In this document: positions 1 through 51,374 of the stretch, piece by piece | Numbering within the stretch: position 1 is the first letter of the stretch | Layout of the letters: every line of letters begins with the position of its first letter | Sequence record: NC_105433.1 | Length of the DNA stretch: 51,374 nucleotides | Reading direction: 5' to 3' (one strand) | Origin: a phage | Made by a program: the position numbers and the translations under genes | The notes under the pieces: generated by a model | Database searches by the model: none | Told to the model about the DNA's origin: nothing | Seen by the model: the letters and a program-made list of their open reading frames with translations, nothing else

Positions 1-21
1 GGTTTTTTATTGCCCGTTGTT

Positions 22-30
22 TGGTATAAT
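22..30 (+). promoter_or_regulatory. Extended -10-like element (TGgTATAAT) upstream of the small terminase gene
   Basis: tggtataat at 22-30, about 28 nt upstream of the ATG at 59; no convincing -35; follows the T-run of the terminator that spans the window junction. Confidence 0.3.
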
Positions 31-58
31 CAGGCATCTAACCAAAGGAGGATTAACA

Positions 59-586
59 ATGGCTAAAAACGTTGAGCCTGCTGTAAAGGCATTAAATTTC
101 AAAGAGTTATACAATAAAACTTATGGCGATATTGTTACGCTAAACAACCGCCACAAGTACACGCCGGAACAGGTTTTTGATATGGCGATCCGCTATTTCA
201 CTTGGGCCGAAGAGAATCACATCCAGGCGGCTGAAACTGCTTCCTTTCAGGGTGACGTGTACGAGAGCAGAGTTTACAAGCCTCGCGTTTTCACGGTTAA
301 CGGATTCAGCTTGTATCTCGGCGTGACTGAGGCAGCCGTAAGCAAATGGCGTAAAGAGCCTGGATTCTGCGATGTGATGGAGTTTGTTGATAAAGTAATT
401 TACGAGCAAAAATTCCAGCTTGCGGCAAATAACATGATTAACGCTGGATTTATCGGTAAAGAGATCGGAGTAGAGAAGCCAGCAACAGTGAGCGTTGAAG
501 CGAGCGCGGCAGCTAATGCAAGCATTGACGCAGTAACTGCCGATGAGGTGAAAGAGGCTGTGATTGATATTCTGGAGCAACTTTAA
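59..586 (+). CDS. Terminase small subunit (putative)
   Basis: Frame of ORF 17..586; first ATG preceded by RBS aaggagg is at 59; stop overlaps the large terminase start (ATGA); position directly upstream of terL. Confidence 0.6.
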   Translation: MAKNVEPAVKALNFKELYNKTYGDIVTLNNRHKYTPEQVFDMAIRYFTWAEENHIQAAETASFQGDVYESRVYKPRVFTVNGFSLYLGVTEAAVSKWRKEPGFCDVMEFVDKVIYEQKFQLAANNMINAGFIGKEIGVEKPATVSVEASAAANASIDAVTADEVKEAVIDILEQL

Positions 587-2154
587 TGATCATATGGGAA
601 GATTTGACGGCGGCGCAAAAGCGAGCCATTAAAGAAATCAGTGAGCATTCATTCGAAAAGATGATCAGGATCTGGTTCCAACTATTACAGGGGCAAAAAT
701 TCCAGAGCAACTGGCATTTTAGCTTATTGTGCAGTGAGGTAGAGAAGATCATCAATGGAGAGTCGCAGAATGTGATTTTCAACATTACGCCAGGTAGCGG
801 AAAGACTGAGATTTTCTCGATCCACATGTCACCCTACGCGTCATTGAAAAGCCGGAAGGTGAGAAATCTTAACCTTTCGTTTAGTGATGGCCTTGTCCAG
901 CAAAACAGCAACCGGATAAAGGAGATTATTGGTTCTCCTGAGTGGCAAGAGCTATGGCCAGGAAAACTGGCAAAGGCGAGCGCTAAAGATCTGATAGTCA
1001 CCGAAGGCGGCAAGGTTAAATTGCAAGTTAACTCACGATCTATTGGCGGCCAGGTAACAGGTTTGCGTGGCGGCTATATGGACGATGGTTTTACTGGTAT
1101 GCTGGTTCTTGACGATCCAGACAAGCCGGATGATATGCTTTCTAAGGTAAAGCGTGAGGCTATCCACATGCGGTTAAAAAACACAGTGCGATCGCGTCGA
1201 ATGAAAGACACCACGCCGATTGTTATGGTGCAACAGCGACTACACGTTAATGATTCCACCTGGTTCATGCTTAATGGCGGAATGGGTGGTATTGAGTTTA
1301 AAGTCGTGAGCATTCCGGCGCTGGTTACGAAAGAATACCGCGAATCGCTTCCTGATTGGTTGAAGCCTGAATTTGATCGTGATGTGCTGTCAAGTAAGCC
1401 AGTGATGATAGATGGCGTTGCTCATTATTCATTTTGGCCTGCGAAGGAAAGCGCGGAGGAGTTGCTTGCATTGCGCAATGCAGATCCTTACACGTTCGCC
1501 AGCCAATACCAACAGCAACCAATCGCGCTGGGCGGGAACGTGTTTAAAACAGAGTGGTTCCAGTATTACGGCAGCGGCGAAAAATGCGCACTTCCTAAAC
1601 CGGATCGCTTTGAATACACATTTATTACTGGAGATACTGCGCAGAAGGCCGGAGAGCTTAACGACTATTCTGTTTTTTGTTATTGGGGGATGTATAAGAA
1701 TCGCGTTTACTTCATTGATGGCATTCGCGGAAAGTGGGAAGCGCCGGATCTTGAATTAAATTTTATTGCCTTCGTTAATCAGTGCTGGAAGCGCAATAAG
1801 GAGTGTGGCAGCTTGCGACGTATCCACATTGAGGATAAGGCCAGCGGCACGGGTTTGATTCAGGGGGCCAAAAAGAAGATCCCGATTGATATAAATCCCG
1901 TTCAGCGAAGCAACGACAAGGTAACGCGAGCAATGGACGCCGCGCCAGTAATGAGGGCCGGACGTGTGGCACTGCCAGAAAATCACCCAATGCTGCCTGA
2001 GATACTGGCAGAGGTTGCAGCATTCACTTTTGATGATTCTCATCCCCATGATGATATTGTCGATAATATAGTTGATGCTGTTAACGTCGAAATGAACTTG
2101 GCAGATGATCCGGTGGCAAGGATGAAAAAGCTGGCTGGTCTACGCAATAAATAG
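586..2154 (+). CDS. Terminase large subunit
   Basis: 522 aa; Walker A-like TPGSGKTE near N-terminus, acidic nuclease-type C-terminal half; order terS-terL-portal. Confidence 0.88.
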   Translation: MIIWEDLTAAQKRAIKEISEHSFEKMIRIWFQLLQGQKFQSNWHFSLLCSEVEKIINGESQNVIFNITPGSGKTEIFSIHMSPYASLKSRKVRNLNLSFSDGLVQQNSNRIKEIIGSPEWQELWPGKLAKASAKDLIVTEGGKVKLQVNSRSIGGQVTGLRGGYMDDGFTGMLVLDDPDKPDDMLSKVKREAIHMRLKNTVRSRRMKDTTPIVMVQQRLHVNDSTWFMLNGGMGGIEFKVVSIPALVTKEYRESLPDWLKPEFDRDVLSSKPVMIDGVAHYSFWPAKESAEELLALRNADPYTFASQYQQQPIALGGNVFKTEWFQYYGSGEKCALPKPDRFEYTFITGDTAQKAGELNDYSVFCYWGMYKNRVYFIDGIRGKWEAPDLELNFIAFVNQCWKRNKECGSLRRIHIEDKASGTGLIQGAKKKIPIDINPVQRSNDKVTRAMDAAPVMRAGRVALPENHPMLPEILAEVAAFTFDDSHPHDDIVDNIVDAVNVEMNLADDPVARMKKLAGLRNK

Positions 2155-5395: not shown

Positions 5396-5407
5396 GGAGT
5401 AATTAAA

Positions 5408-5917: not shown

Positions 5918-5921
5918 AATC

Positions 5922-5948
5922 AAGGCGCTCGCTTGAGCGCCTTTTTTA
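5922..5948 (+). terminator. Intrinsic terminator
   Basis: aaggcgctc-gctt-gagcgcctt stem followed by ttttttatt. Confidence 0.6.
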
Positions 5949-5967
5949 TTATGTAAGGAGAAATGAA

Positions 5968-6750
5968 ATGGCTAAAGATTATTCATCTGTTATGGGTCTT
6001 TCTTGCCCTGGTTGTTTGGTTGATTCTACTCGCTACAATATTGATGGTACTGGCGTTTGTGGTTCTGAATCGATCATTGCTGGTAAGGTTGTTTTCTTTA
6101 AGGAGAGAATCGGCGGTTACAACATATTTGTTGACCACAAAGAGGAGGACGCTGTGGTTGCGGGTGTTGCGCTAAGGAGCAACATAACAACGACAGTTAA
6201 CGAGGAAGACGGGTATTCCGACTACAAGGAAGGAGACGCCATCAACATTTTGACAAGAGGTGTTGTATGGTGTGTAACTCAAACAATTGAATCTCCCCCT
6301 GAGCATGGGGATCTTGTTTATGTTAACAATGATGGTTTTGTAGCAAAGAGTGATGGCGATGAAATCGTCGATGGCTGGATTTTTACTGGTGACTTCTACA
6401 AGTTTGATGAAACAATAAACATAGTCGGAGTCAGAATAACGCCGCTTTATCATAGAAAATATCTTCTCACTGGTGCGATCATTGAGGCTGAAAATGGATA
6501 CATAGAGGGAACAGAGACGATTGATAACGTCCAATTAAAGGTAACGGTTGTTCCGACTTGGGCTGATGACAAAACGGGTCAGTGGACAATTACAAATCCA
6601 CAAGATCCAAAGGTTGCCAGTGTTAGCCGCACAGGTCTTGTTGTTCCTACTGGTGTAGGAGGAAGAGTTAACGTCAACTGGACTGCTAATGATGGTTCTG
6701 GAGTTGCTGACCAGTTTGATATTGTATTTACGAAAACCGCTGGCGAATAA
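5968..6750 (+). CDS. Virion structural protein with C-terminal Ig-like (Big_2-type) domain, putative head decoration
   Basis: 260 aa; RBS aaggag 7 nt upstream; N-terminal region paralogous to 5408..5917; C-terminal beta-rich segment resembles bacterial Ig-like folds. Confidence 0.5.
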   Translation: MAKDYSSVMGLSCPGCLVDSTRYNIDGTGVCGSESIIAGKVVFFKERIGGYNIFVDHKEEDAVVAGVALRSNITTTVNEEDGYSDYKEGDAINILTRGVVWCVTQTIESPPEHGDLVYVNNDGFVAKSDGDEIVDGWIFTGDFYKFDETINIVGVRITPLYHRKYLLTGAIIEAENGYIEGTETIDNVQLKVTVVPTWADDKTGQWTITNPQDPKVASVSRTGLVVPTGVGGRVNVNWTANDGSGVADQFDIVFTKTAGE

Positions 6751-8183: not shown

Positions 8184-8603
8184 ATGGTAGATGAATTTTA
8201 CACAGACGCTGAAATCATGCAGCAAATCGTAAAGTTAGCGCCGCCAATGCAACAAGTTGATCCCGATTTAATTGTGGCATGGATTGAGCTTGCTAAAGAG
8301 TTTGTTTGCAAAAAACGGTTTAAAAACTCATACCCTAAAGCGGTTGCGCTTTACACTCTTCACCTTATGACCTTAGACGGGGCAATGAAACAGGAAGGTG
8401 AAAGCGTAGAAAGCTACTCCCGCCGCGTTGCCTCGTTCACTCTGACTGGTGAGTTTAGTCAGACGTTTGATCGAATTTCTTCCGATACAAGCGGAAAGCA
8501 GATCCGACAAACGCCGTGGGGCAAAATGTACGAAGTGTTAAACCGTAAGCACGGTGGCGGCTTTGGCCTTGTGACTGGATTGCGCCGGAGATGCTGCCGA
8601 TGA
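8184..8603 (+). CDS. Head-tail connector protein (gp6-like, putative)
   Basis: 139 aa; position and size; RBS ggagaaaacaaaATG. Confidence 0.45.
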
Positions 8604-37868: not shown

Positions 37869-38549
37869 TGAGTTTGACTCAAAGACGGCGCGAGCAAATC
37901 CGCGCGGAGTGAGGGAGCGTAGTTGCTTTGTTCTGGCAGACTTACCGCCTAAAAACTTCCAACCCCAAAAGAACATTACGCCCTCATCATTGGATAACGG
38001 CTTGCGTTCCGGTTCGGTAAATCCGTTGCCGCACCAGATAGCCGTCCTTTTAGTGTAGCCATCCTTTAGCGGCATTTTGGGGTGAAATGACCCATCGGAT
38101 TCGTCCAAGTAGTTACCAAAATCGCGCGGATTGAAATAAAAATCCGGCTTGCGCCATAGCGTTGATAGTCGGCCTACCGGATTCTCAGCCATCCAGGGAA
38201 CACCGAAATGATTTCCGACTTTTTCAACCATGATTGCATTTTGTAGCGCGATATGAATATCGTCTTCGCTGCGCACATGCTTACTTCCTGATTGTGCGAA
38301 CATGGTGCAGTCTGGAAAGCCAAATACAATATCAGGTTTTGGAATATCCATCTTAATGATGTTTTCAATGAAATTTTCATCAATCCACATATTCACATAA
38401 TGCAGATTTTCATGATTCATTTTGATGAAATATTCTCCGTGATTGCCTTCGTCAGCGTTAAAGCAATAGCATTGATAACCAGCCTTCGCATATTCAAGCA
38501 GCATGATTCCAGATCCATCAAACATTGAGTAAGCAACTTTATTTCCCAT
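37863..38549 (-). CDS. SAM-dependent methyltransferase-like protein (cytosine-C5 MTase-like motifs, tentative)
   Basis: Frame of ORF 37863..38609; probable start at internal Met (about 38549); motif I-like SMFDGSG, motif IV-like FGFPDCTMFAQSG, ENV-like MAENPVG. Confidence 0.4.
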   Translation of the reverse strand: MGNKVAYSMFDGSGIMLLEYAKAGYQCYCFNADEGNHGEYFIKMNHENLHYVNMWIDENFIENIIKMDIPKPDIVFGFPDCTMFAQSGSKHVRSEDDIHIALQNAIMVEKVGNHFGVPWMAENPVGRLSTLWRKPDFYFNPRDFGNYLDESDGSFHPKMPLKDGYTKRTAIWCGNGFTEPERKPLSNDEGVMFFWGWKFLGGKSARTKQLRSLTPRGFARAVFESNSK

Positions 38550-39066
38550 GATTTTTATGATACCCCAATTCATTCTCGGCTTTACGTTTTGCGGCAACAG
38601 CATCTCCAAAACTGGAAAAACAACCTATATAAATCCTACTTCCTCGCTTTCCGCCTCCAACCCTTACAACCCATTTGCCATGTTTATTTTTATGCACACC
38701 TAGTATGCCACTTGTATTGTTTTTCTGCTTTGATGTGTTTCGCATATTTCCTTTGTGATCTTTTAACTCAAAGTTTATTGCTCTGTTATCAGTCGTAATG
38801 TGATTTACGTGATCAACCTCCATTCCTTCCGGTATAGGCCCATAGTGCATTTCATAGCATATTCTATGAACTTTCAGGTTATAACGTTTTCCGTTTACAG
38901 TAAGTGCGGTTTCTAAATATCTGCCACCACTACCCAAAGAGCCAACCTCATTACCAGCATTGCAAGCATTCCATTGTTTAACTCTTGATGGGTGAATATC
39001 TTTTCTTTCTTTCCAGAACAGCTTTCCAGTTTCTGGATTGTATGTAAAGTAATCGTGCCAATTCAT
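38539..39066 (-). CDS. HNH homing endonuclease with AP2-type DNA-binding domain
   Basis: 175 aa; HNH motif VDHVNHITTDNR; C-terminal GILGVHKNKHGKWVVRV...GCFSSFGDAVAAKRKAE; overlaps the upstream end of the methyltransferase-like gene. Confidence 0.7.
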   Translation of the reverse strand: MNWHDYFTYNPETGKLFWKERKDIHPSRVKQWNACNAGNEVGSLGSGGRYLETALTVNGKRYNLKVHRICYEMHYGPIPEGMEVDHVNHITTDNRAINFELKDHKGNMRNTSKQKNNTSGILGVHKNKHGKWVVRVGGGKRGSRIYIGCFSSFGDAVAAKRKAENELGYHKNHGK

Positions 39067-42124: not shown

Positions 42125-42204
42125 TGCTATCTCCTGAGCGGTTCGTTTCGATGTGTGTAATGTACCCGATCAGACGGCCTGAGTTTTAACAAAAAGTGCT
42201 ATTT
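42125..42204 (-). promoter_or_regulatory. Box-type promoter cassette for the leftward block
   Basis: Minus strand: aaatagcactttttgttaaaac followed by leader gggtacattacacacatcgaaacgaaccgctcaggag and ATG. Confidence 0.45.
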
Positions 42205-42479
42205 GACGGTTAGCGCCAGGATTGTGATCGAAATAATCAGAAGTAATCATTCGTAATCAAATCACGTCAAAATGATGATTGCCTTTGCAAATTTGATGAG
42301 AAAAGCAATCACGTTTAATCATTGGTTGCAGGGGAGATAGTGAAACCCTCCCCTCTTGCCTCACTTTTCCGCCTGGCTGTCAGTGGTTGTTGTCTTTTGT
42401 TCACCCCTGTTACCGATTTCAGGCGGCGTGTTTCCGCGCGGTTTTCCGGTGTAGCGAAAACGGAAAAAACAAAGAAAAT

Positions 42480-42690
42480 CCTCTATAATACATTGAAAAT
42501 AAAGATTATTTATTTATATATATCTATAATGTTTTCTTTTTGTTCTCACTGTTACAGTGCTTTTTGTTGGGTGTGGTGTGGTTGTGTGTTGGTATATATG
42601 GATAGTTGCGCGCGCGGCGGATTGCATATGTATATATACTTTTTCCGGCGGATTGCGTTAACAGCGTGAACAGAAAAATAACAGCCCTGA
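42480..42690 (+). repeat. Noncoding block B, homologous to block A at 21420..21615
   Basis: Ordered sub-blocks: attatttatttat AT-rich run, G/T-rich run (ttgggtgtggtgtggttgtgtgttgg), then gcatatgtatatatac...ccggcgg...aacagaaaaataaca. Confidence 0.6.
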
Positions 42691-42757
42691 AATCAACAAC
42701 TTGCGCATGATTTTGTAGTTTTTCGATATTGGTAACGTTTTGAATACAACAAAAACA

Positions 42758-42785
42758 TTGACACGCACCAAATAGCTTTTATAAT
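42758..42785 (+). promoter_or_regulatory. Consensus sigma70 promoter (TTGACA, 16 nt, TATAAT) for the rightward early arm
   Basis: ttgaca at about 42758-42763 and tataat at about 42780-42785; RBS ggagg; ATG at 42817. Confidence 0.7.
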
Positions 42786-42816
42786 GCGCCAACAGTCAAC
42801 AACTGGAGGAAAGGAA

Positions 42817-43281
42817 ATGGAACAGAAGACCACTAAGGACTATTGCGATTGGCTTCGCGAGCTTGGTCGCCGCCTGGCTAGTGGCGATATTGAAGAGTAT
42901 AAAATGTCACTAATTGACCTGGCCGGAATGTTAAGCGGTGACGACTGCTACAAGATCACGCGCAGTTCATCCTACAGCCGGACCATTATCAACCGCGTTC
43001 CAGAAGTAAGGGCCGCAGGTCGGGTAAGTATCAAGGTCGAGGAAACGGAAGATGATAAATTTTACGTTTTCCGCATGGTGCGCGAATCAAAAAGGAAAAT
43101 CATCACACCAGAAGAATTGCCAGCAATCAAGGCAAGGGCGATCAAAAAGTTTGCCGATCGCTTACTGGCAGCAATCCCGAACATCGTTGACCTGGAGGGT
43201 GATAAACTGGCTGGAGCTTGTGAGGGCGTAAGCCGCTACCAGGATATGATCCGCGAAATCATCAAAGAGGAGGAGCAATAA
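42817..43281 (+). CDS. Hypothetical early protein (first gene after the consensus promoter)
   Basis: Frame of ORF 42784..43281 (whose first ATG lies inside the -10); ATG at 42817 with RBS ggagg; about 154 aa. Confidence 0.55.
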   Translation: MEQKTTKDYCDWLRELGRRLASGDIEEYKMSLIDLAGMLSGDDCYKITRSSSYSRTIINRVPEVRAAGRVSIKVEETEDDKFYVFRMVRESKRKIITPEELPAIKARAIKKFADRLLAAIPNIVDLEGDKLAGACEGVSRYQDMIREIIKEEEQ

Positions 43282-43541
43282 TGAAAAAGGCATTAATCGG
43301 CGTTTTGGCGGCAATGACACTCCTGACCGGATGCGAAAAGGCATCAGAATCAACGGTTGTCGTAGGCGTGGAGTCAGATTTCAAAGTCGGTCGCCTGTTC
43401 ACTGTTGACGGATGCACAGCATACAGATTCTATGATAACGGTCGCGCGATCTATTACACCAATTGCAAAGGCGCAACGGATAGCACGTACAACAGCGGAA
43501 AGAACGTAATGCACCAGCAAGTCACAACAGATATTAAATAG
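43281..43541 (+). CDS. Lipoprotein (early), candidate superinfection exclusion factor
   Basis: 86 aa; ATGA overlap with the upstream gene; signal peptide with lipobox LLTGC; two further Cys. Confidence 0.5.
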   Translation: MKKALIGVLAAMTLLTGCEKASESTVVVGVESDFKVGRLFTVDGCTAYRFYDNGRAIYYTNCKGATDSTYNSGKNVMHQQVTTDIK

Positions 43542-43581
43542 CACTTTTTGTTAAAACGCCAGGCGCAAAGCCTGGCATAAT
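43537..43581 (+). promoter_or_regulatory. Box-type promoter cassette (box, perfect hairpin, CATAAT)
   Basis: aatagcactttttgttaaaac over the TAG stop; hairpin gccaggc-gcaaa-gcctggc; cataat 22 nt after ttgtta. Confidence 0.5.
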
Positions 43582-43613
43582 AGCCTCATCGAAACGAGAT
43601 TGAGGAAACAAAA

Positions 43614-43799
43614 ATGGCACGTCGCATCACCAAAGACCTTAAAGTCCTGAACAAAGAAAACGTAGTTAAAATCCTGGTTATCTGGGGCTACAACGAAGAA
43701 ACAGCAAAGCAGAAGGTCGAGGCGGGTTACGACCTGGCTGTAAAAGCAATGCCAAACGACGACGCAAAAGGCATTGCAAACTATGTGGCTTTCTTTTAA
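43614..43799 (+). CDS. Hypothetical protein
   Basis: 61 aa; RBS gagg; follows a box cassette. Confidence 0.5.
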   Translation: MARRITKDLKVLNKENVVKILVIWGYNEETAKQKVEAGYDLAVKAMPNDDAKGIANYVAFF

Positions 43800-43814
43800 T
43801 TAGCAGGTGAATAA

Positions 43815-44000
43815 ATGAAAACGAAATTAGTCCATAAATCAGAAATTAAGATCGGCGATACTGTGATTCACAACGGCGAGCTTAGAACGGTTGGCAAAGA
43901 GTCAATAAGCCACGATGAATTTATGGGGATCTTGTTGTTCGGTGACTCTTATCGTCTTGGTTACAAGATGGTTGAGCTTGTGGAAGAGGTAAAATTCTAA
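43815..44000 (+). CDS. Hypothetical protein
   Basis: 61 aa; RBS aggtg; stop embedded in the box. Confidence 0.5.
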   Translation: MKTKLVHKSEIKIGDTVIHNGELRTVGKESISHDEFMGILLFGDSYRLGYKMVELVEEVKF

Positions 44001-44044
44001 ATAGCACTTTTTGTTAAAACTCAAAAACGATAACCAGGCATAAT
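44000..44044 (+). promoter_or_regulatory. Box-type promoter cassette (no clear hairpin)
   Basis: aatagcactttttgttaaaac, 22 nt, cataat; RBS aggag before the ATG at 44100. Confidence 0.45.
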
Positions 44045-44099
44045 AAATCACATAGGGCGGCACGGCGTCGCCCAGTTAAACCAATCAGGAGAAAGCACC

Positions 44100-44993
44100 A
44101 TGTTAAAACTTGCTGACATTAAATTCCCGATCACTTTCGAATCTCGTGGCATTGGTCATTACATTTTTACCGATGAAAAAACATGCCATAAGGTTGATAT
44201 GAACAGCGACAAACTAAGTCCATCAACAATGGAGATTGAACACTTTATTGATGCGCACAATACGCACCACAACGCACTTAAAGACTATGGCTATGCAATG
44301 CCAGGCTACACATGCTTGCACTACAAGCCATATAAGGGCCAGGTGTTACCAGTGCGCTCACCGGAACGCGCAGAGATTCCGATGGTCAATATTAAAACCT
44401 GCGACTACAAAAAGCTGTGGTGCTTAAGTCTGGACAATATCAAGTATCCGATCACGTTCCACACGACTGGTAAGTCAACGATTCGCTACACATCTCGCGA
44501 CAATGGCGTTTATAGCGATGGTACGAAATCAGAGTTGAAAGTTAATTTCTTTGTAAATGGTCACAACAAATTCAATCCGCACAACGAAGAGGATAAAGTG
44601 TATTACGTGGAAGACATTACAAAACACTTGTTTGGAGAAACTCCATTCGGCGGCGGGAAGACGGCAATTCAGAAAATCATTGACGAGGAGATCCATAAAG
44701 CGGCTGTCGAAATGAAAGCGCCTGGAGGCTGGCGTATTGACAAGAGCGCATTTGCCTATCAAGAAATCGTAACGCAGGGAGCGATTGAAGATATGCCAGT
44801 TACAGCCACGCTAAAAGGAGTCCGGCTTGATGACGGCACATGGTATGAGTTAACGGCTACACCAAAGACGATCGAAATTCATGATGATGTTGTTATCCTT
44901 CTGCTTCACTACGGCGGCACTAAAAACCGGACTGTTGCAGGTGAGATCAGCATCAAGCGCGGAACGATGGTTAAGTGGAAGGTGAAGATTTGA
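44100..44993 (+). CDS. Hypothetical protein with internal tandem duplication
   Basis: 297 aa; LADIKFPITFESRGIGHYIFTDEK and LDNIKYPITFHTTGKSTIRYTSRD are repeated N-terminal modules. Confidence 0.55.
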   Translation: MLKLADIKFPITFESRGIGHYIFTDEKTCHKVDMNSDKLSPSTMEIEHFIDAHNTHHNALKDYGYAMPGYTCLHYKPYKGQVLPVRSPERAEIPMVNIKTCDYKKLWCLSLDNIKYPITFHTTGKSTIRYTSRDNGVYSDGTKSELKVNFFVNGHNKFNPHNEEDKVYYVEDITKHLFGETPFGGGKTAIQKIIDEEIHKAAVEMKAPGGWRIDKSAFAYQEIVTQGAIEDMPVTATLKGVRLDDGTWYELTATPKTIEIHDDVVILLLHYGGTKNRTVAGEISIKRGTMVKWKVKI

Positions 44994-45070
44994 GTTTGTT
45001 CACTGCGGCGCACGTCGCCGCATGGATAGGATTGTTTGCCTACCTGTTTAGCTTTTATTGAGGTGAGAGA

Positions 45071-45222
45071 TGGCTACCTGGATTTTGCTGATTCTTATGA
45101 TTGATGGCGGCGTTGACCATATCGAAATGAATAGCCAGCAATCTTGCATTGAGGCACGAGAGCAGATCAAGAACAACAACAGGTTTTATGCGTACACTCA
45201 CACGCTATGTATTAAGAAATAG
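45071..45222 (+). CDS. Small hypothetical protein (50 aa), absent from the ORF track
   Basis: RBS gaggtg; reads MATWILLILMIDGGVDHIEMNSQQSCIEAREQIKNNNRFYAYTHTLCIKK; TAG stop at 45220-45222 inside the box. Confidence 0.4.
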
Positions 45223-45261
45223 CACGAATTGTTAAAACTCAAATGTGGGGCCAGGTATAAT
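45218..45261 (+). promoter_or_regulatory. Box-type promoter cassette (variant box, TATAAT in a short stem-loop)
   Basis: aatagcacgaattgttaaaac, 21 nt, tataat flanked by ggcc...ggcc. Confidence 0.45.
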
Positions 45262-45291
45262 GGCCTCACTTTCAACGAGAGGGGAAACACG

Positions 45292-45519
45292 ATGGAAAGT
45301 TTAATCATCCAGAAGAAAATGAAGTGCGTCAGTGTAGCGCCAGGTTGCGGATTTATGTTCACAGTGGGGCATATCTACTCCGCGCAGAAGATGAGAACAT
45401 CAACCGGATCGTTTTACGTCAATAACAATCAAGGATACCGCATGTTCCTGAACGGTCAAAACGGCAACGAAATTTGCGCTTACGCAGACATTATCGCAAC
45501 CTTTGAGGAAGTGAAATAA
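45292..45519 (+). CDS. Small protein, tandem paralogue A
   Basis: Frame of ORF 45229..45519; ATG at 45292 with RBS gagagggg; shares G(Y)(R/K)(M/F)(F/Y)LNG(Q/N)NG(N/T)EI...FE(E/Q) with the next gene. Confidence 0.5.
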   Translation: MESLIIQKKMKCVSVAPGCGFMFTVGHIYSAQKMRTSTGSFYVNNNQGYRMFLNGQNGNEICAYADIIATFEEVK

Positions 45520-45764
45520 TGATCATCGAAAACAACTTTCTTTGCGTTAAGAGCAATCGACCATTCTTCACGCCTGGCAAGGTGTACCAGGGCAAGAAGG
45601 ACACAAGAGATGGTCACTCTTATCATGTTCACTGCAACAACGGATACAAGTTTTACCTCAACGGTAATAATGGAACTGAGATTGTTGCGTTTGAAAACGT
45701 AATTGCCGAGTTCGAGCAGATTACAGACGCGGAATTTGAGGAAGTGAAAGATGAAAACAAATAA
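45519..45764 (+). CDS. Small protein, tandem paralogue B
   Basis: 81 aa; ATGA overlap with paralogue A. Confidence 0.5.
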   Translation: MIIENNFLCVKSNRPFFTPGKVYQGKKDTRDGHSYHVHCNNGYKFYLNGNNGTEIVAFENVIAEFEQITDAEFEEVKDENK

Positions 45765-45972
45765 GCGCGTCAAGCACAGGTTTACTGATAACCACGGCGA
45801 CGCGATTGATGTATACAAGTTCGGCGATCGCGTGTTTATTGATGGCACGTTTGAAGGTGGTCGTAGGCCGGATTTTAGGTCGATACTTACCGTTGACCAA
45901 GTGCGCAAGCTGGCAGATAAGTTAAATGATCTGGCAGATGAAATAGAATACAAGCAAATCCATTTTAATTGA
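45751..45972 (+). CDS. Hypothetical protein
   Basis: 73 aa; overlaps the upstream gene end. Confidence 0.45.
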   Translation: MKTNKRVKHRFTDNHGDAIDVYKFGDRVFIDGTFEGGRRPDFRSILTVDQVRKLADKLNDLADEIEYKQIHFN

Positions 45973-45983
45973 TAGGTTTGATA

Positions 45984-46697
45984 ATGAAAAAATACACTTT
46001 CGAACTGTGGGGCAAGAAGTACGAATTAATCACCAGCAAGCCGATTGTTATCGTTGACCTGGACGGCACACTATCGGACGGATCGCATCGTTTGCATTTG
46101 CTGCCAACTGAAAACTTGCACCTTACGGAATCGTGGCGCGAGTTTAACAGGGCCGCCGCCGGAGATTCACCGATTAAAAGCACTATCGCGGTTATTAACG
46201 GTTTATGGGTGTCGGGATTTGCCATCGTCATCTTGACCGGACGCAGCGACGAGGTTCGCTATGAAACCTGCAAATGGTTGAATGAGAACGGCGTGAAGTT
46301 TGACGAAATCATCATGCGCCGCCAGGAGGACAACCGAAAGGATACGGTTATTAAAGAAGAAGCCTTGCGCGCTATTGGCCTGGACAACATTGTTTGCGCC
46401 TTTGACGATTCGCCGAACGTGGTTAAGCACTTCCGCAGCTTGGGGATCACAACCTATCAGGTCACGGAATACGACAAGCCACACGCTCACATACAATCTC
46501 ACGGCGTGGAATCAATCAAGATCACGAAGCGCGCCCGATTCGTCGGCAGCAAAGACAGCCTGGTCAATGCCAGCTTTATCAAAGGCAAGGTTTATGATGT
46601 TCATAGCCATGATAAAAACAGATTCTTTTTGTGGGATGAAAAAGGTTTTGGCTGGTGCTTTGAACACGACGACGGCGATTTTGTTAATGCGGAATAG
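45984..46697 (+). CDS. HAD-superfamily phosphatase (nucleotidase or Pnk-phosphatase-like, putative)
   Basis: Frame of ORF 45969..46697; ATG at 45984; HAD motif I VIVDLDGTLSDG; stop embedded in the box. Confidence 0.5.
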   Translation: MKKYTFELWGKKYELITSKPIVIVDLDGTLSDGSHRLHLLPTENLHLTESWREFNRAAAGDSPIKSTIAVINGLWVSGFAIVILTGRSDEVRYETCKWLNENGVKFDEIIMRRQEDNRKDTVIKEEALRAIGLDNIVCAFDDSPNVVKHFRSLGITTYQVTEYDKPHAHIQSHGVESIKITKRARFVGSKDSLVNASFIKGKVYDVHSHDKNRFFLWDEKGFGWCFEHDDGDFVNAE

Positions 46698-46743
46698 CAC
46701 TTTTTGTTAAAACAGATTGTCGGGCTTGCGGTATAGTAAGCCC
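46693..46743 (+). promoter_or_regulatory. Box-type promoter cassette with hairpin-enclosed TATAGT
   Basis: aatagcactttttgttaaaac, 22 nt, tatagt in the loop of gggctt...aagccc. Confidence 0.5.
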
Positions 46744-46768
46744 ATCAACAACAAACGAGGATTAAATC

Positions 46769-47032
46769 ATGGCTAACAAGATCGAGTTTTTTAAAGCGGT
46801 AGACATTATTGATGGCGCGCCTAGCTTCTTTGCCATCCATTCTATTGACGGCAAGGATATTGGGTACAACGTTATCCGTCGAGATGGAATCTCAAAACTT
46901 AGTGACCTGGTAGGCCATATTGTGTCAAACGGGAAATGCGCATGGCCCGATTCGCCACGAGAGCCACGCCGCCGCGACATGGTAGAGCCTGTTCTGCTTT
47001 ACACTCTGGTAGTAGAAGGAGAAAATAAATGA
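46769..47032 (+). CDS. Hypothetical protein
   Basis: 87 aa; RBS gagg. Confidence 0.5.
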   Translation: MANKIEFFKAVDIIDGAPSFFAIHSIDGKDIGYNVIRRDGISKLSDLVGHIVSNGKCAWPDSPREPRRRDMVEPVLLYTLVVEGENK

Positions 47033-47214
47033 TTTGGTTACTTGCTTTTTTGGTTGTTTTTCTTTACATTTCAGGCTTGTTTACGTTCCGCGCGTTGGTG
47101 AAATATTCTGACACGACAGACAAAGACGATAAAATCGTTCTCGCTTTCTGGTTTGTTTGGGTGTGGTTAGCAATTTACGAGATCATCAGAGACAAACAGA
47201 AATTTGAGTGGTGA
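47029..47214 (+). CDS. Small membrane protein (two predicted transmembrane segments)
   Basis: 61 aa; ATGA overlap; hydrophobic segments LLAFLVVFLYISGLF and IVLAFWFVWVWLAIY. Confidence 0.5.
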   Translation: MIWLLAFLVVFLYISGLFTFRALVKYSDTTDKDDKIVLAFWFVWVWLAIYEIIRDKQKFEW

Positions 47215-47222
47215 TTCTTGCT

Positions 47223-47252
47223 ATGGCGCATTCATGCAGTGCGCCATTTTGA
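47223..47252 (+). terminator. Hairpin plus short T-run
   Basis: tggcgca-ttcatgcag-tgcgcca followed by tttt. Confidence 0.4.
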
Positions 47253-47270
47253 GAAAACCTAAAGGGGGAA

Positions 47271-47423
47271 ATGATGCGTAACTTTGAAAAAATCATTACC
47301 AAAAAGAAGCGTCGCGGGTACGATGAGCATGTGGAGCTTGTGAAAAAGCAACGCAAGAAGCGCAACGAAGACAAGAAGCGTGGGAAAAAATTTAATGCGA
47401 TTTTTCGCTATGGAGATCATTAA
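47271..47423 (+). CDS. Small highly basic protein (50 aa), absent from the ORF track
   Basis: RBS aaaggggg; reads MMRNFEKIITKKKRRGYDEHVELVKKQRKKRNEDKKRGKKFNAIFRYGDH; stop overlaps the kinase start region. Confidence 0.35.
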   Translation: MMRNFEKIITKKKRRGYDEHVELVKKQRKKRNEDKKRGKKFNAIFRYGDH

Positions 47424-47425
47424 TC

Positions 47426-48016
47426 ATGAAACGAGACATTATCATCCTTAATGGGCCGCCAGGTTGCGGGAAGGACACTATTGCAGCTTACCTAACGGGC
47501 CATCGTTACCCTGCTGTCAAGGCGTCATTCAAACAGCCGATGTTCGATATTGCTTTTTCTATGCTGGGCGTGTACCGATACGATGAATTTATGGACCTGT
47601 ACAACGACCGAGAGCAAAAAGAAAAGCCTCAAGTTATCTTGGGCGGCAAGTCACCTCGACAATTCATGATCTGGATTAGCGAGGATGTAATGAAGCCAGT
47701 TTTTGGGGATCACTATTTCGGGCGTCGAATGGTTGAAGAGATTCACGAGATGTACCGAGATTTGGCGGTTGTGATCAGTGATGGCGGATTCCCCGAAGAA
47801 ATCAAGCCGCTGGTTAAGGCAGGGCATGAAGTGCATATTTGCCGATTGCATCGCGACGGCTTCACGTTTGCTGGCGATTCGAGAGACTACATTGACCTGA
47901 GCGGTTATCACTATCGAATCCATCACTATGATTTCCACTTGCAGGACGGTAAGCCGGAACTGGCTGTAAACGAGATCGTCAATGCTGTCAAATGGAAGCA
48001 CACACAGATTAAATAG
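47426..48016 (+). CDS. P-loop nucleotide kinase (dNMP kinase-like, putative)
   Basis: 196 aa; Walker A GPPGCGKDT at residues 10-18. Confidence 0.55.
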   Translation: MKRDIIILNGPPGCGKDTIAAYLTGHRYPAVKASFKQPMFDIAFSMLGVYRYDEFMDLYNDREQKEKPQVILGGKSPRQFMIWISEDVMKPVFGDHYFGRRMVEEIHEMYRDLAVVISDGGFPEEIKPLVKAGHEVHICRLHRDGFTFAGDSRDYIDLSGYHYRIHHYDFHLQDGKPELAVNEIVNAVKWKHTQIK

Positions 48017-48056
48017 CACGAATTGCTAAACGCGGGGCGCAATGCCTCGCTATAAT
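48012..48056 (+). promoter_or_regulatory. Box-type promoter cassette (variant box, hairpin, TATAAT)
   Basis: aatagcacgaattgctaaac, 22 nt including gcgggg...cctcgc, then tataat; RBS gagagg; ATG at 48087. Confidence 0.5.
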
Positions 48057-48086
48057 GCAAACACCAATCAACGAGAGGAAATCACA

Positions 48087-48467
48087 ATGGTTAACATCAG
48101 AAAAATCCGCGTCGGCACTAAATTCTTAGTTACTTACGCAATTCCAGATAGCGGAATGAAGAAGGGCCAGATTGTTAAGGTTGATAGCAAAAGATTCGGA
48201 ATCCCTGGTATCAATGGCTATCTAATCAATAGAGATCTTGGATTCGACGGCTTCGCTATCCGTGCGCTTGAGGGTATTGTTGCCACTCTTAAACGAATCA
48301 CTAATCATCGCGGCTGCCCAATCAAGACGATTAAAGCGCCAATAAATTACGGCAAACTGGATAATCGTCGAATCCGCCGCCTGGCGCGTAACGCGTTAAA
48401 ATTCCGTGGCGTAGGCGATGATTTCTACTATGGATACAAGAGGATTGCGCGCAATGCTGGGAAATAA
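48087..48467 (+). CDS. Hypothetical basic protein
   Basis: Frame of ORF 48042..48467; ATG at 48087 with RBS gagagg; about 126 aa. Confidence 0.5.
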   Translation: MVNIRKIRVGTKFLVTYAIPDSGMKKGQIVKVDSKRFGIPGINGYLINRDLGFDGFAIRALEGIVATLKRITNHRGCPIKTIKAPINYGKLDNRRIRRLARNALKFRGVGDDFYYGYKRIARNAGK

Positions 48468-48566
48468 CAATAACGCAACGAATCCTAAGCCACCTTTTGA
48501 TTTTCATTCCGCAATGATTGCGGTATTATCAATGCTACTTTTTCTTTATAGCATGAGGGCGCTACT

Positions 48567-48815
48567 ATGGTTTTTAACGCATTGAAACGACTGTTTAAGC
48601 CGGAATACCGGATCGTATTTTGCCGCGACTGTTCTACTTATCATGTGCAGCGACGCAGCTTAGGCGGCAATTGGCACTATGTTACAGACGACTTTTTCGG
48701 CATCATTGCCACTGAATTTAAGTATTACAGTGATGCTTATATGTACGTGAAGAAGCGCCACCGCTTACGCAAGTGTCGTTTTTCCGTGCTGATTCACGTT
48801 AATGATTGTTACTGA
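48567..48815 (+). CDS. Hypothetical Cys-containing protein (possible zinc binding)
   Basis: 82 aa; CRDCSTYH motif and further Cys residues; RBS gaggg. Confidence 0.45.
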   Translation: MVFNALKRLFKPEYRIVFCRDCSTYHVQRRSLGGNWHYVTDDFFGIIATEFKYYSDAYMYVKKRHRLRKCRFSVLIHVNDCY

Positions 48816-48822
48816 GGTGAAA

Positions 48823-49005
48823 ATGAAAACTGGTATTATTATTCTTTTCCTGATCCTTTTCGGTAGCCATTTAACCATTAACTATGAGGGCATTATGGCC
48901 TTTTGGGGCAACTTGATGGTTTTTGCCGCTGGTTCAATTACTGGCTACTCTGACGGGAAAAAGGACGGCGTTCGCAAGATGCTGATGGGACTTAAACAAA
49001 AATAA
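48823..49005 (+). CDS. Small membrane protein
   Basis: Frame of ORF 48802..49005; ATG at 48823 with RBS gaggtg; two hydrophobic segments. Confidence 0.45.
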   Translation: MKTGIIILFLILFGSHLTINYEGIMAFWGNLMVFAAGSITGYSDGKKDGVRKMLMGLKQK

Positions 49006-49016
49006 GGGGATCTGAA

Positions 49017-49307
49017 ATGGCAAACAAAACTTACCGCAAACTACTGGTTAACGCTTTTGAAAACATCGCGCAGTGTAACAAGTGGAACGACTCTAAACAC
49101 TCGCCAGTCACAATGAAGCGGGCCGGATTCAAAAATGCTCGTTCATGGGCGCGAGCTTTCGCAGCTTGCTATATGCCGGATGGTGGACTAGGAGCGATGA
49201 ATGATTTTTTGATCAACATGATAGAGGAAGCTGCGCGAGAGGATCGACCGCTGACACAGCGAGATTTTGACGACTTCGCGCGCGATGAGCTTTACTATCT
49301 GAGCTAA
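49017..49307 (+). CDS. Hypothetical protein
   Basis: 96 aa; RBS aagggga; stop embedded in the box. Confidence 0.5.
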   Translation: MANKTYRKLLVNAFENIAQCNKWNDSKHSPVTMKRAGFKNARSWARAFAACYMPDGGLGAMNDFLINMIEEAAREDRPLTQRDFDDFARDELYYLS

Positions 49308-49356
49308 TAGCACTTTTTGTTAAAACTTCCGCAAGGGCATTTGATAAAGTGCCCTT
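49306..49356 (+). promoter_or_regulatory. Box-type promoter cassette with hairpin-enclosed -10-like hexamer
   Basis: aatagcactttttgttaaaac, then perfect stem aagggca / tgccctt with loop tttgataaag (taaagt 22 nt after ttgtta). Confidence 0.45.
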
Positions 49357-49382
49357 ATTGAAGCGAAACAGAGGAAAGCGCA

Positions 49383-49595
49383 ATGAAAATCAAAATCACC
49401 AAAATCGACACCATCAACGGCGACGGATCAATCACTCTTGAGCAATGCGGTTTGGTTGTTGGTGATGTGCTGGAGGTTGACGGTCATTTCAGCGACGGAT
49501 CTTATTGTGTTATTGCGCCGCGTAACAGCGAGTTTATCAAGGCTGGCGATAATATTAGTGTTAACCATGACGAATGCGAGGTAGTAGAAGAATGA
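49383..49595 (+). CDS. Hypothetical protein
   Basis: 70 aa; RBS gagga. Confidence 0.5.
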   Translation: MKIKITKIDTINGDGSITLEQCGLVVGDVLEVDGHFSDGSYCVIAPRNSEFIKAGDNISVNHDECEVVEE

Positions 49596-49855
49596 TCACG
49601 ATTAACCTGTCAGAGCAGCAAGCGCGCATTATGTTAGCGGCCTTTGGTTGGCGAGATGATGACGGTATTCAGGCAACGGTTAAAATCCCTGAGACGGTAG
49701 CGCGTGAAGTTTTTAACCAGCTTGAACACGCATTTGATCCTGCTGGGACTGAGCAAGCGGAAACTGCCGCATGGTTCGGAGAGAACGGATACAGAGATCA
49801 GCAAGTCGAAAACTGGAAGCGCATAAACGAGACTATGGAGGAATCAGGTTTATGA
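49592..49855 (+). CDS. Hypothetical protein
   Basis: Frame of ORF 49574..49855; ATG at 49592 overlaps the upstream stop (ATGA). Confidence 0.45.
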   Translation: MITINLSEQQARIMLAAFGWRDDDGIQATVKIPETVAREVFNQLEHAFDPAGTEQAETAAWFGENGYRDQQVENWKRINETMEESGL

Positions 49856-50166
49856 TTTACATTCACTACTACCAAATCGGAACTAACGAGAACAAAAAAG
49901 AGCATCGTTTCATCCACGATGATTTGGACAAGGCAAAGGCACAGCAACAGGTTTTAGGCGGCGTCATTCAGGCTTTTGAGCCTGTAGAAGATATTGAGTA
50001 CCGCGAGCATTTAAAAGATGTTGTTATTGATGAGATCTCTTGCTTGATTGATGATATGACAAATCACGGCCCTGGTTCCCCGTGGGAAGATGCAGGATCT
50101 GTAACGTGGGACAAGGCCAAAGTTAAGACGCTAAACAACTTTCGAGAGATTCTCGACGGTTTTTAA
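49852..50166 (+). CDS. Hypothetical protein
   Basis: Frame of ORF 49771..50166; ATG at 49852 overlaps the upstream stop; RBS ggagg. Confidence 0.45.
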   Translation: MIYIHYYQIGTNENKKEHRFIHDDLDKAKAQQQVLGGVIQAFEPVEDIEYREHLKDVVIDEISCLIDDMTNHGPGSPWEDAGSVTWDKAKVKTLNNFREILDGF

Positions 50167-50236
50167 TTAAAAACGCATAGCCGTTAGAGCGCCTAAATCG
50201 CATTCTAACGAGCTATTTTTCTGGTAAGGTGATTTA

Positions 50237-50365
50237 ATGGATGAGTACAAACAACCTTCGCAGTGGTGCAAAGAGAAGCAAGAAGAGGCACTGGAGCGCG
50301 GAGATGTGGAAGAAGCTATGAACTATTTCAAACTTGCGGAAGAGTGGAAGGGGAGAGGATACTGA
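50237..50365 (+). CDS. Small acidic protein (42 aa), absent from the ORF track
   Basis: Reads MDEYKQPSQWCKEKQEEALERGDVEEAMNYFKLAEEWKGRGY; stop overlaps the next gene start. Confidence 0.3.
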   Translation: MDEYKQPSQWCKEKQEEALERGDVEEAMNYFKLAEEWKGRGY

Positions 50366-50595
50366 TGTTCGGCATGAATGAGGCGCAATTCAACGCAGCT
50401 AAACGCCAGGCTAAAAAGTGCGGCGAGGCGATGAAAGCGGATGTGGAAAAGCGCGGGAAGTATGTTGATGAAGTAATGAAGGGCATCATTGCAGAACACT
50501 ACCAGCCAATCGCGCCAATGTTGACGATCACTCAATTCATTTGGCTATGTGGTTACTTGCGTGGACGTTGGGGGAACGCTTTCGACAGGGAATGA
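50365..50595 (+). CDS. Hypothetical protein
   Basis: Frame of ORF 50263..50595 (GTG-initiated in the track); internal ATG at 50365 coupled to the upstream small ORF. Confidence 0.45.
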   Translation: MFGMNEAQFNAAKRQAKKCGEAMKADVEKRGKYVDEVMKGIIAEHYQPIAPMLTITQFIWLCGYLRGRWGNAFDRE

Positions 50596-50624
50596 TTGAC
50601 AACTATTTCCTGATTGGTTAGCAT
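50596..50624 (+). promoter_or_regulatory. sigma70-like promoter (TTGACA, 17 nt, TAGCAT)
   Basis: ttgaca at about 50596-50601 and tagcat 17 nt downstream; a long-loop hairpin ggcgata...tatcgcc plus tttttt follows before the RBS at 50758. Confidence 0.35.
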
Positions 50625-50757
50625 GGCGTCGTTTACATAAGAGCGGCTTAGTCCGAACGCGTGACGCGATAGTCACACAACAACGGCGATATGCAGGAGG
50701 TTTTTGCAACGCAAAATAATCCATAAGACGTATCGCCTTTTTTAATGGAGATCCAAA

Positions 50758-50991
50758 ATGATTAAATACAAATTAACAGTTTCTTTCCGTGATACCGTTA
50801 TTCATCCTTTCTACAATAGCTTTGTTAACAGCTTTACGGTAGAGGCGACAGAGGATCAGCTAGACGGTGACGAAACTTGCATTTCTATTGGAAATGTTGC
50901 TTACCCGATTCACAACATTACCAGCATTAAGCGTGAGGTTGTCGCTGATGAATTACAAAGTGAAGATGACGATCCGGCGAATGGGGCGTAA
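50758..50991 (+). CDS. Hypothetical acidic protein
   Basis: 77 aa; RBS ggag. Confidence 0.5.
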   Translation: MIKYKLTVSFRDTVIHPFYNSFVNSFTVEATEDQLDGDETCISIGNVAYPIHNITSIKREVVADELQSEDDDPANGA

Positions 50992-51129
50992 TTGCCAATC
51001 ATGCAAACAGGAATATGAATGCGTAGTTGATGCTCTTGATGAACTGGAAGCAGTAGCAAAAGCAAAAGAGCAATCGGGCGCTAATCCTGAAACACATCAA
51101 TTTTCAATTAACCTTGTGAGGGCTTTACA

Positions 51130-51354
51130 ATGATCGCATTATCTTTCTGCATTGGTTTTATCATGGCTATCATTATCTTTTCCGTTGTCATGCGCTTTGC
51201 TTATAAGTTCGTGATTAATAAAGGTTGGTACGCTTCTGCAATCTGGAGCGAAAAACAAAAGAAATGGCTTGTACGTGGTCAATACCTGATGATCGGTAGC
51301 AAGATCCTAAATTCCATTCGAGCCAAAGATGGGAAAGTAAAATATACAGCTTAA
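51130..51354 (+). CDS. Small membrane protein
   Basis: 74 aa; N-terminal transmembrane segment LSFCIGFIMAIIIFSVV; basic C-terminus. Confidence 0.5.
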   Translation: MIALSFCIGFIMAIIIFSVVMRFAYKFVINKGWYASAIWSEKQKKWLVRGQYLMIGSKILNSIRAKDGKVKYTA

Positions 51355-51360
51355 AAATCA

Positions 51361-51374
51361 CCCGCCGAACGGCG
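51361..51374 (+). terminator. 5' half of an intrinsic terminator completed by window positions 1-10
   Basis: Window end cccgccgaacggcg joined to window start ggttttttat gives cccgcc-gaac-ggcggg followed by tttttt. Confidence 0.5.

What the first reader, a model, noticed from the sequence alone, without database searches (positions are those of the whole stretch)
51361..51374. Terminator split across the window ends indicates a circularly closed, permuted genome
Joining the window end (cacccgccgaacggcg) to the start (ggttttttattg) forms a canonical intrinsic terminator, and the first gene (small terminase) begins 59 nt after the junction. The window is therefore probably a complete genome linearised at an arbitrary point, as expected for a headful-packaged, terminally redundant phage; the true pac site and ends are not defined by these coordinates.
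Basis: inference. Interest (0 to 1): 0.45.

Follow-up and report, generated by a model that had tools for sequence, protein, structure and literature searches.

The report
Terminator split by genome record origin
The two ends of this window join into an ordinary transcription terminator just upstream of the small terminase gene of a T1-like coliphage, so the sequence is a complete genome opened at a bookkeeping point and not at a real DNA end, which is normal for this phage family.

Summary
Confirmed and ordinary. Joining window end to start gives ACCCGCC-GAAC-GGCGGGT plus a T6 run, 6 nt after the stop of the last early gene and 55 nt before the terS ATG (position 59). The joined 1-kb junction is present as one gapless piece (97.5-99.9% identity) inside 53 of 60 related phage records. 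The window is a clean circular permutation of Warwickvirus tonijn. The same terminator plus -10 module precedes terS in 10 Drexlerviridae from at least 7 genera, with compensatory stem changes, and the T1 and Sip records already annotate it. The phage is a Warwickvirus-type T1-like siphophage. Its TerL is 65% and 62% identical to those of T1 and TLS, both shown by experiment to package by pac-initiated headfuls. Its TerS is homologous to P22 gp3. A published Warwickvirus was called "Headful (pac)" from reads. One nuance: the cut is probably the common "start at the terS operon" convention and not a random point. The likely pac region lies about 9 kb upstream, near window 42,280-42,340, where the T1, TLS, XY3 and G29-2 record origins map. 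No reads were available for this isolate. Nothing here is new.

The parts
51130..51354 (+). Last gene of the rightward early block: a 74-aa protein with a hydrophobic N-terminal segment (DUF7299). Its stop codon lies 6 nt before the hairpin.
   Evidence: ORF list; Pfam PF23973, E 5e-29; translation. T1 has a single-TM protein in the same position (CPTT1_023).
51360..51374 (+). 5' arm (ACCCGCC), loop (GAAC) and the first 4 nt (GGCG) of the 3' arm of the intrinsic terminator.
   Evidence: Sequence; fold -17.1 kcal/mol, z -3.54; scanner call at the homologous site in tonijn.
1..8 (+). The rest of the 3' arm (GGT, 1-3) and the T tract (3-8) of the same terminator.
   Evidence: Sequence; contiguous with 51374 in 53 related records; RNAalifold on 10 Drexlerviridae gives 8 pairs, 4 with compensatory changes.
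22..30 (+). Candidate extended -10 promoter element TGGTATAAT for the terS/structural operon (inferred).
   Evidence: Sequence. A -10-like hexamer at the same distance is conserved in 10 relatives, and 7 of the 11 sequences examined, the window among them, have the TGn extension. There is no good -35, and the site has not been tested by experiment.
45..51 (+). Shine-Dalgarno sequence AAGGAGG, 7 nt before the terS ATG.
   Evidence: Sequence.
59..586 (+). Small terminase subunit (175 aa), P22 gp3-like.
   Evidence: Pfam GP3_package, E 3.8e-11; phrog_606, E 2e-53; tblastn to P22 gene 3, E 1e-12; 54% identity to T1 TerS and 46% to TLS TerS.
586..2154 (+). Large terminase subunit (522 aa).
   Evidence: phrog_38, E 5e-107; Terminase_6C; 65% identity to T1 TerL and 62% to TLS TerL; 99.8% to vB_EcoS-95.
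42758..42785 (+). Perfect sigma-70 consensus promoter (TTGACA-16-TATAAT). It is the probable start of the 8.6-kb rightward early transcription unit that the junction terminator closes.
   Evidence: Scanner, 12 of 12 matches. There is no strict + strand terminator between here and 51367. + strand ORFs cover 92% of 42784-51354. That these form one transcription unit is inferred.
42200..42345 (.). Probable pac / first-cut region in the divergent intergenic region, about 9 kb upstream of terS.
   Evidence: T1 record base 1 aligns to ~42277. TLS record base 1, the mapped and assigned pac (AGATTT), aligns to ~42289. The TLS HindIII site at 5876 agrees with the published distance of 5,882 bp from pac (PMC11447400). 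The XY3 record starts exactly at 42340, and G29-2 appears to start at the homologous base (judged by eye; blastn found no match). This stretch has the highest density of AATCA/TGATT in the genome, 7 in 131 nt against 0.68 expected.

Best explanation
The window is the complete, non-redundant genome of a T1-like siphophage (Drexlerviridae, Tempevirinae, Warwickvirus type). It is written as a linear record whose origin was placed 58 nt upstream of the small terminase gene. That origin cuts through a conserved rho-independent terminator. In the real genome the hairpin ACCCGCC-GAAC-GGCGGGT plus T6 is intact. It ends the 8.6-kb rightward early gene block, which is driven from a consensus promoter at 42758-42785. 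It is followed directly by an extended -10 promoter and a ribosome-binding site for terS, terL and the structural genes. Virion DNA is linear. It is cut from concatemers by a P22-gp3-like TerS and T1-like TerL terminase, which starts at a pac site and then measures headfuls. The DNA is therefore terminally redundant and partly permuted, and it assembles into a circle. The first cut is most likely near window 42,280-42,340 and not at the window ends. Shown here: contiguity of the junction, the hairpin and its conservation, and the homologies. Inferred: terminator and promoter function, the extent of the transcription unit, headful packaging in this isolate, and the position of pac.
For: Junction: one gapless match in 53 of 60 records at 97.5-99.9% identity. 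In tonijn the 60 nt on each side of the junction differ at one base. The window and tonijn are reciprocal circular permutations. There is no terminal direct repeat in the record. Terminator: -17.1 kcal/mol, z -3.54; scanner call of 7 pairs, 6 of them G-C; conserved 49-58 nt before terS in 10 Drexlerviridae, with 4 of 8 pairs showing compensatory changes; annotated independently in T1 (8322-8344), Sip and Sweeny. Packaging: TerL and TerS identities to T1 and TLS; GP3_package domain and P22 gene 3 homology. Literature: TLS and T1 use pac-headful packaging in series of 3-4 headfuls (PMC11447400, PMC5238451); SU57 restriction patterns fit a permuted genome (PMC7718038); Warwickvirus 149_6D was called 'Headful (pac)' (PMC13507304); KanT1 showed no fixed termini (PMC13164509). 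Origin convention: BASEL methods (PMC8594841); many records start at or just before terS. pac region.
Against: No sequencing reads or virion DNA data exist for this isolate, so its packaging mode rests on homology. The terminator and promoter are predictions, and no transcript data were found. The pac position is extrapolated from restriction-level mapping in TLS and from where other depositors opened their records. XY3's start may itself be a convention. Blastn found no match between the G29-2 start and the window, so its correspondence with window 42340 rests on a by-eye comparison of the first ~25 nt; Korf et al. also opened records by homology to published relatives where no ends were detected (PMC6563267). 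The AATCA array could instead be an origin of replication or a set of regulator sites. A cut inside a hairpin is a 0.2% event under a random origin, so the origin is not strictly 'arbitrary', and I cannot tell convention from an assembler break.
Confidence: 0.9

Rival explanations
1. The window boundaries are real physical ends (cos ends or exact direct terminal repeats collapsed by the assembler), and the terminator-like join is coincidental or only formed in replicative forms.
For: None specific. In general, assemblies of DTR phages also circularise, and the window shows no terminal repeat, as a collapsed DTR record would not.
Against: A random join gives such a terminator in 5 of 100,000 trials. 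The join is contiguous inside 53 independently deposited records opened at many different points. T1 and TLS have experimentally permuted, redundant DNA (PMC11447400). SU57 showed no cos ends (PMC7718038). A Warwickvirus was read-typed as headful (PMC13507304).
Confidence: 0.02
2. The junction is real, but pac lies in or next to terS, as in P22, Sf6 and SPP1. The first-headful end would then be close to the window origin, and the origin would be near-physical.
For: TerS is homologous to P22 gp3, whose pac site lies inside gene 3 (established knowledge, cited in PMC11447400). Many depositors open records at terS.
Against: The best match to the 22-bp P22 pac anywhere in the window has 7 mismatches, and none lies in terS. 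The mapped TLS pac is record base 1, 8.8 kb upstream of terS, and this agrees with the HindIII site at 5876 (PMC11447400). T1's pac is placed in the same untranslated region (PMC7718038). XY3 opens at window 42340, and G29-2 appears to open at the homologous base.
Confidence: 0.06
3. The origin inside the hairpin is an assembler artefact and not a depositor's convention: contigs can break at the inverted-repeat k-mers of a strong hairpin.
For: The cut falls inside the stem and not at a gene start or after the T run, where a curator would more naturally cut. Only 125 of 51,374 positions lie in such hairpins.
Against: The cut is also inside the 78-nt spacer directly upstream of terS (0.15% of the genome). 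This is where 7 of 60 related records and many other Drexlerviridae records are deliberately opened (PMC8594841). Either way the conclusion that the origin is non-physical stands.
Confidence: 0.3

Closest known systems
Rho-independent terminator upstream of terS in coliphage T1 (AY216660, feature 8322-8344) and 'Sip_Terminator021' in Warwickvirus Sip (OU734268)
   Same: Same position: just after a small membrane-protein gene and 49-58 nt before the terS ATG. Same core stem CCCGC/GCGGG and T run, followed by a -10-like element. In Sip and tonijn the surrounding 1 kb is 98-99.9% identical to the joined window ends, and the tonijn hairpin is identical.
   Different: The window stem has one more G-C pair than T1's and a GAAC loop in place of TCCG. 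Here it is split by the record origin.
Warwickvirus genomes (tonijn, tiwna, atuna, tunus, SECphi27, swan01, XY3)
   Same: 96.4-98.1% nucleotide identity over 92% of the window, fully collinear as a circle, with the same terS/terL.
   Different: Mosaic replacements at 24329-26205 (tail-fibre end), 37920-39066, 43341-43535 and 45295-45976 relative to tonijn. No record of 99% identity or more over the end segments searched.
pac-initiated headful packaging of T1 and TLS
   Same: Homologous TerS and TerL (46-65% identity). The same divergent intergenic region lies about 8.4-9.1 kb upstream of terS, where the T1 and TLS pac sites or record origins sit.
   Different: Not tested for this isolate. The pac-region sequence is only loosely alignable with T1 and TLS. 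The length of the terminal redundancy is unknown.
Phage P22 gp3 / pac system
   Same: TerS belongs to the same Pfam family (GP3_package) and aligns to P22 gene 3. Both use a headful mechanism.
   Different: P22's pac lies inside gene 3. Here no P22-like pac sequence exists, and the family's pac maps about 9 kb upstream of terS.

Membership tests
Intrinsic (rho-independent) terminator | G+C-rich hairpin (5-11 bp stem, 3-8 nt loop) followed immediately by a run of U | tested here: met
   7-bp stem with 6 G-C pairs, 4-nt loop, T6 tail; -17.1 kcal/mol, z -3.54.
Intrinsic (rho-independent) terminator | Lies just downstream of a stop codon on the transcribed strand, at an operon boundary | tested here: met
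   The hairpin starts 6 nt after the TAA of the last + strand early gene and ends 55 nt before the terS ATG.
Intrinsic (rho-independent) terminator | Structure conserved among relatives, with compensatory changes | tested here: met
   10 Drexlerviridae sequences: 8 pairs, 4 of them with changes on both sides.
Intrinsic (rho-independent) terminator | Transcript 3' ends at the U tract in vivo or in vitro | not testable with these tools
   No transcript data. Term-seq or Northern analysis is needed.
Drexlerviridae / genus Warwickvirus | At least 70% nucleotide identity over the genome to genus members, with a collinear gene order | tested here: met
   96.4-98.1% identity over 47,468 of 51,374 nt with Warwickvirus tonijn, circularly collinear; taxonomy lines of the hits.
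pac-type headful packaging with terminal redundancy | Terminase subunits homologous to those of phages shown by experiment to package by headful | tested here: met
   TerL 65% and 62% identical, and TerS 54% and 46% identical, to T1 and TLS. TerS is homologous to P22 gp3. Experimental basis: PMC11447400.
pac-type headful packaging with terminal redundancy | Genome map closes into a circle, and records of relatives are opened at different points with no fixed end | tested here: met
   the window junction, the tonijn record ends and the pac-candidate region are each contiguous inside other records.
pac-type headful packaging with terminal redundancy | Sub-molar pac fragment or read start-site peak with directional decay; virion DNA longer than the unique sequence | not testable with these tools
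   No reads or virion DNA for this isolate. A genus relative was typed 'Headful (pac)' from reads (PMC13507304).
P22-type pac site inside the small terminase gene | Sequence resembling the 22-bp P22 pac within terS | tested here: not met
   The best match in the whole window has 7 of 22 mismatches, and none lies in terS.

The most novel reading that the evidence does not exclude
The dense array of AATCA/TGATT pentamers at window ~42,220-42,330, next to the base where XY3 opens its record and G29-2 appears to open at the homologous base, and where the T1 and TLS origins align, could be the still undefined sequence-level pac / TerS-binding site of T1-like phages. A P22-gp3-type small terminase would then act on a site about 9 kb away from its own gene instead of inside it.
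Probability: 0.35. Interest if true: 0.3.

Novelty: already known. Interest (0 to 1): 0.06.

Why it matters
It matters only for bookkeeping. The record is complete, its ends are not biological ends, and annotation pipelines will miss the terminator and the terS promoter unless the sequence is treated as circular. It also warns against reading packaging ends from record coordinates in T1-like phages. The physical first cut is probably about 9 kb upstream of terS.

Tried and rejected
(1) An exact 33-nt junction pattern in IMG/VR viral contigs gave 0 hits. This says nothing either way, since Warwickviruses are reported absent from such datasets (PMC7552041). (2) A PDB sequence search with TerL gave no hit at E <= 0.01. 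(3) Rfam on the intact junction in tonijn gave only two sub-threshold sRNA hits (27 and 25 bits against gathering scores of 55 and 51), driven by the terminator hairpin. No known RNA family is present. (4) No tRNA genes were found in the window. (5) A search for a P22-like pac sequence found nothing. (6) The T1 genome paper (PMID 14972552) is not held. T1's pac placement therefore rests on secondary statements (PMC7718038, PMC5238451) and on the TLS mapping. (7) pSf-1's record start was checked as a possible source of G29-2's origin. It starts elsewhere. (8) A terminase tree with distant reference phages was considered and dropped. Identity of 62-65% to two experimentally characterised phages says more than such a tree would.

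Full report
OBSERVATION. The window ends ...CAGCTTAA AAATC ACCCGCC GAAC GGCG and begins GGT TTTTT ATTGCCCG.... Joined, this is a 7-bp stem (6 G-C pairs), a 4-nt loop and a T6 tail. An upstream A5 run can pair with the T run. The joined 48-mer folds as RNA to -17.1 kcal/mol, z = -3.54 against 200 dinucleotide shuffles. The hairpin starts 6 nt after the TAA (51352-51354) of the last + strand gene. The terS ATG is at 59-61. The ORF lister's TTG at 17 is an upstream extension. The quoted string spans 51359-51374, so the finding's start coordinate is 2 nt off. Otherwise the description is accurate.

IS THE JOIN REAL? I built the artificial junction from the last 500 and first 500 nt and searched 50,697 phage records. 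Of 60 matching records, 53 contain it as a single gapless piece at 97.5-99.9% identity in the interior of the record. The other 7 are themselves opened within about 60 nt of terS. In Warwickvirus tonijn the 60 nt on each side of the junction differ from the joined window ends at one base, and the pattern scanner calls a terminator there. A whole-genome comparison shows that the window and tonijn are reciprocal circular permutations. Window 1-6188 corresponds to tonijn 45440-51627, window 6189 onward to tonijn 1 onward, and window 51374 to tonijn 45439. No bases are missing or duplicated at the junction, and the record has no terminal direct repeat. Random chimeric joins of window fragments produce a comparable hairpin plus T run in only 5 of 100,000 trials.

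WHAT THE PHAGE IS. The best relatives are Warwickvirus members (Drexlerviridae, Tempevirinae): tonijn, tiwna, atuna, tunus, SECphi27, swan01, XY3 and Sip. Identity to tonijn is 96.4-98.1% over 92% of the window. The gene order is that of T1 and TLS. No tRNA genes were found.

WHAT THE ELEMENT IS. In the annotated T1 record a rho-independent terminator (8322-8344) sits after a small single-TM protein gene and 52 nt before terS. Sip and Sweeny carry the same annotation. I extracted the region upstream of terS from 10 Drexlerviridae spanning Warwickvirus, Hanrivervirus, Tunavirus, Tlsvirus, Badaguanvirus, Webervirus and Veterinaerplatzvirus. All have a G+C-rich hairpin plus T run ending 49-58 nt before the ATG, followed by a -10-like hexamer. 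Seven of the 11 sequences examined, the window among them, have a TGn extension. RNAalifold gives 8 consensus pairs, 4 of them with compensatory changes on both sides, for example CCCGC/GCGGG against CCCTC/GAGGG. Rfam holds no family for it. My strict scan finds no other + strand terminator between 34,720 and the junction. A perfect sigma-70 consensus promoter sits at 42758-42785, and + strand ORFs cover 92% of 42784-51354. The most likely function is therefore to end the 8.6-kb rightward block of small early genes and insulate it from the terS/terL/structural operon. That operon has its own extended -10 element (TGGTATAAT, 22-30) and Shine-Dalgarno sequence (45-51). These functional statements are inferences from sequence and conservation. 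No transcript data were found.

PACKAGING. TerS (59-586) matches Pfam GP3_package and phrog_606, and it aligns with P22 gene 3 by tblastn (E 1e-12). TerL (586-2154) is 65% identical to T1 TerL and 62% to TLS TerL. TLS and T1 package from a pac site by headfuls, in series of three to four, which gives terminal redundancy and partial permutation (PMC11447400; also PMC5238451, PMC4070988). SU57 gave circle-like restriction maps and no cos ends (PMC7718038). KanT1 showed no fixed termini (PMC13164509). Warwickvirus vB_EcoS-149_6D, which clusters with AV105 (itself 96% identical to the window), was typed 'Headful (pac)' from reads (PMC13507304). It was not tested on this isolate.

WHERE THE REAL ENDS PROBABLY ARE. 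The TLS record begins with AGATTT, the sequence its authors assigned as pac. Its first HindIII site, at 5876, matches their mapped distance of about 5,882 bp (PMC11447400). The T1 and TLS records both open in the divergent intergenic region 8.4-8.8 kb upstream of terS. The window's equivalent region is 42125-42783. Local alignment puts T1 base 1 at about window 42277 and TLS base 1 at about 42289. The Warwickvirus XY3 record starts exactly at window 42340. The Hanrivervirus G29-2 record appears to start at the homologous base; blastn found no match, so this rests on a by-eye comparison of the first ~25 nt. Korf et al. linearised contigs at abrupt read ends where these were detectable, and otherwise by homology to published relatives (PMC6563267). 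pSf-1 starts elsewhere, so G29-2's origin was not copied from it. The stretch 42200-42330 has the genome-wide maximum density of AATCA/TGATT pentamers, 7 against 0.68 expected. No P22-like pac sequence exists in terS or elsewhere in the window. I therefore place the probable first cut near 42,280-42,340. This is an inference. The repeat array could instead serve replication or regulation, and the region is contiguous inside 59 other records, as expected for headful phages.

WHY THE RECORD OPENS HERE. The cut lies in the 78-nt spacer before terS, which is 0.15% of the genome, and inside a hairpin (125 of 51,374 positions lie in such hairpins). Many Drexlerviridae records start at or within about 60 nt upstream of terS. 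The BASEL collection states this as its rule (PMC8594841). A conventional re-opening is the likeliest cause. An assembler break at the inverted repeat cannot be excluded. Either way the origin is not a physical end.

VERDICT. The finding is a routine property of a T1-like phage record and is already known. Its practical value is to treat the sequence as circular when annotating it. The only mildly open point is the sequence-level identity of pac in this family.

Noticed in passing
window, 19 sites, e.g. 6778, 10532, 30698, 31769, 37850, 40376, 40882, 42186, 43537, 44000, 46693, 49306: An 18-nt repeat, TTAACAAAAAGTGCTATT, occurs 19 times with up to 3 mismatches (0.14 expected), mostly in intergenic positions. 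In the early blocks it is read as AATAGCACTTTTTGTTAA on the coding strand. In the structural block (6778, 10532, 21310) it has the opposite orientation. It corresponds to the '21-base intergenic repeats' reported for TLS (PMC11447400), and T1 carries it too. Its function is unknown.
   Followed up: partly
window 42200-42345: The genome-wide densest cluster of AATCA/TGATT pentamers (7 in 131 nt against 0.68 expected). It lies just upstream of the base where XY3 opens its record, where G29-2 appears to open at the homologous base (judged by eye; no blastn match), and where the T1 and TLS origins align. It is a candidate pac / TerS-binding array.
   Followed up: partly
window 42758-42785 (+): A perfect sigma-70 consensus promoter, TTGACA-16 nt-TATAAT, at the head of the rightward block of small early genes.
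   Followed up: no
window 42480-42720: An unusual stretch with AT-rich alternating runs (TATATATATC, TATATATAC) and GT-rich runs (GGGTGTGGTGTGGTTGTGTGTTGG) within the divergent intergenic region. The T1 and TLS leader regions are similar in style. It could be an origin or a regulatory region.
   Followed up: no
window 24329-26205, 37920-39066, 43341-43535, 45295-45976: Segments with no megablast match to tonijn in an otherwise ~97% identical, collinear genome. The first covers the end of the 775-aa minus-strand ORF (tonijn's 'tail fiber protein') and the second the methyltransferase region. These are typical mosaic replacements.
   Followed up: no
phage collection hits: About 20 records named 'Campylobacter phage' (host Campylobacter jejuni), e.g. 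MG065657 and MG065685, match this T1-like coliphage at 60-86% identity across terS-terL and the leader region. This is an odd host label for Drexlerviridae and may reflect contamination or mislabelling.
   Followed up: no
window 51355-51374 + 1-10, minus strand: The A5 run before the hairpin gives a T run on the opposite strand, so the scanner also calls a minus-strand terminator at the same hairpin in tonijn. There are no nearby minus-strand genes, so a bidirectional role seems unnecessary.
   Followed up: no
window 59-586: The small terminase is P22 gp3-like (Pfam GP3_package; tblastn to P22 gene 3), yet the family's pac site maps about 9 kb upstream of the gene and not inside it as in P22.
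   Followed up: partly
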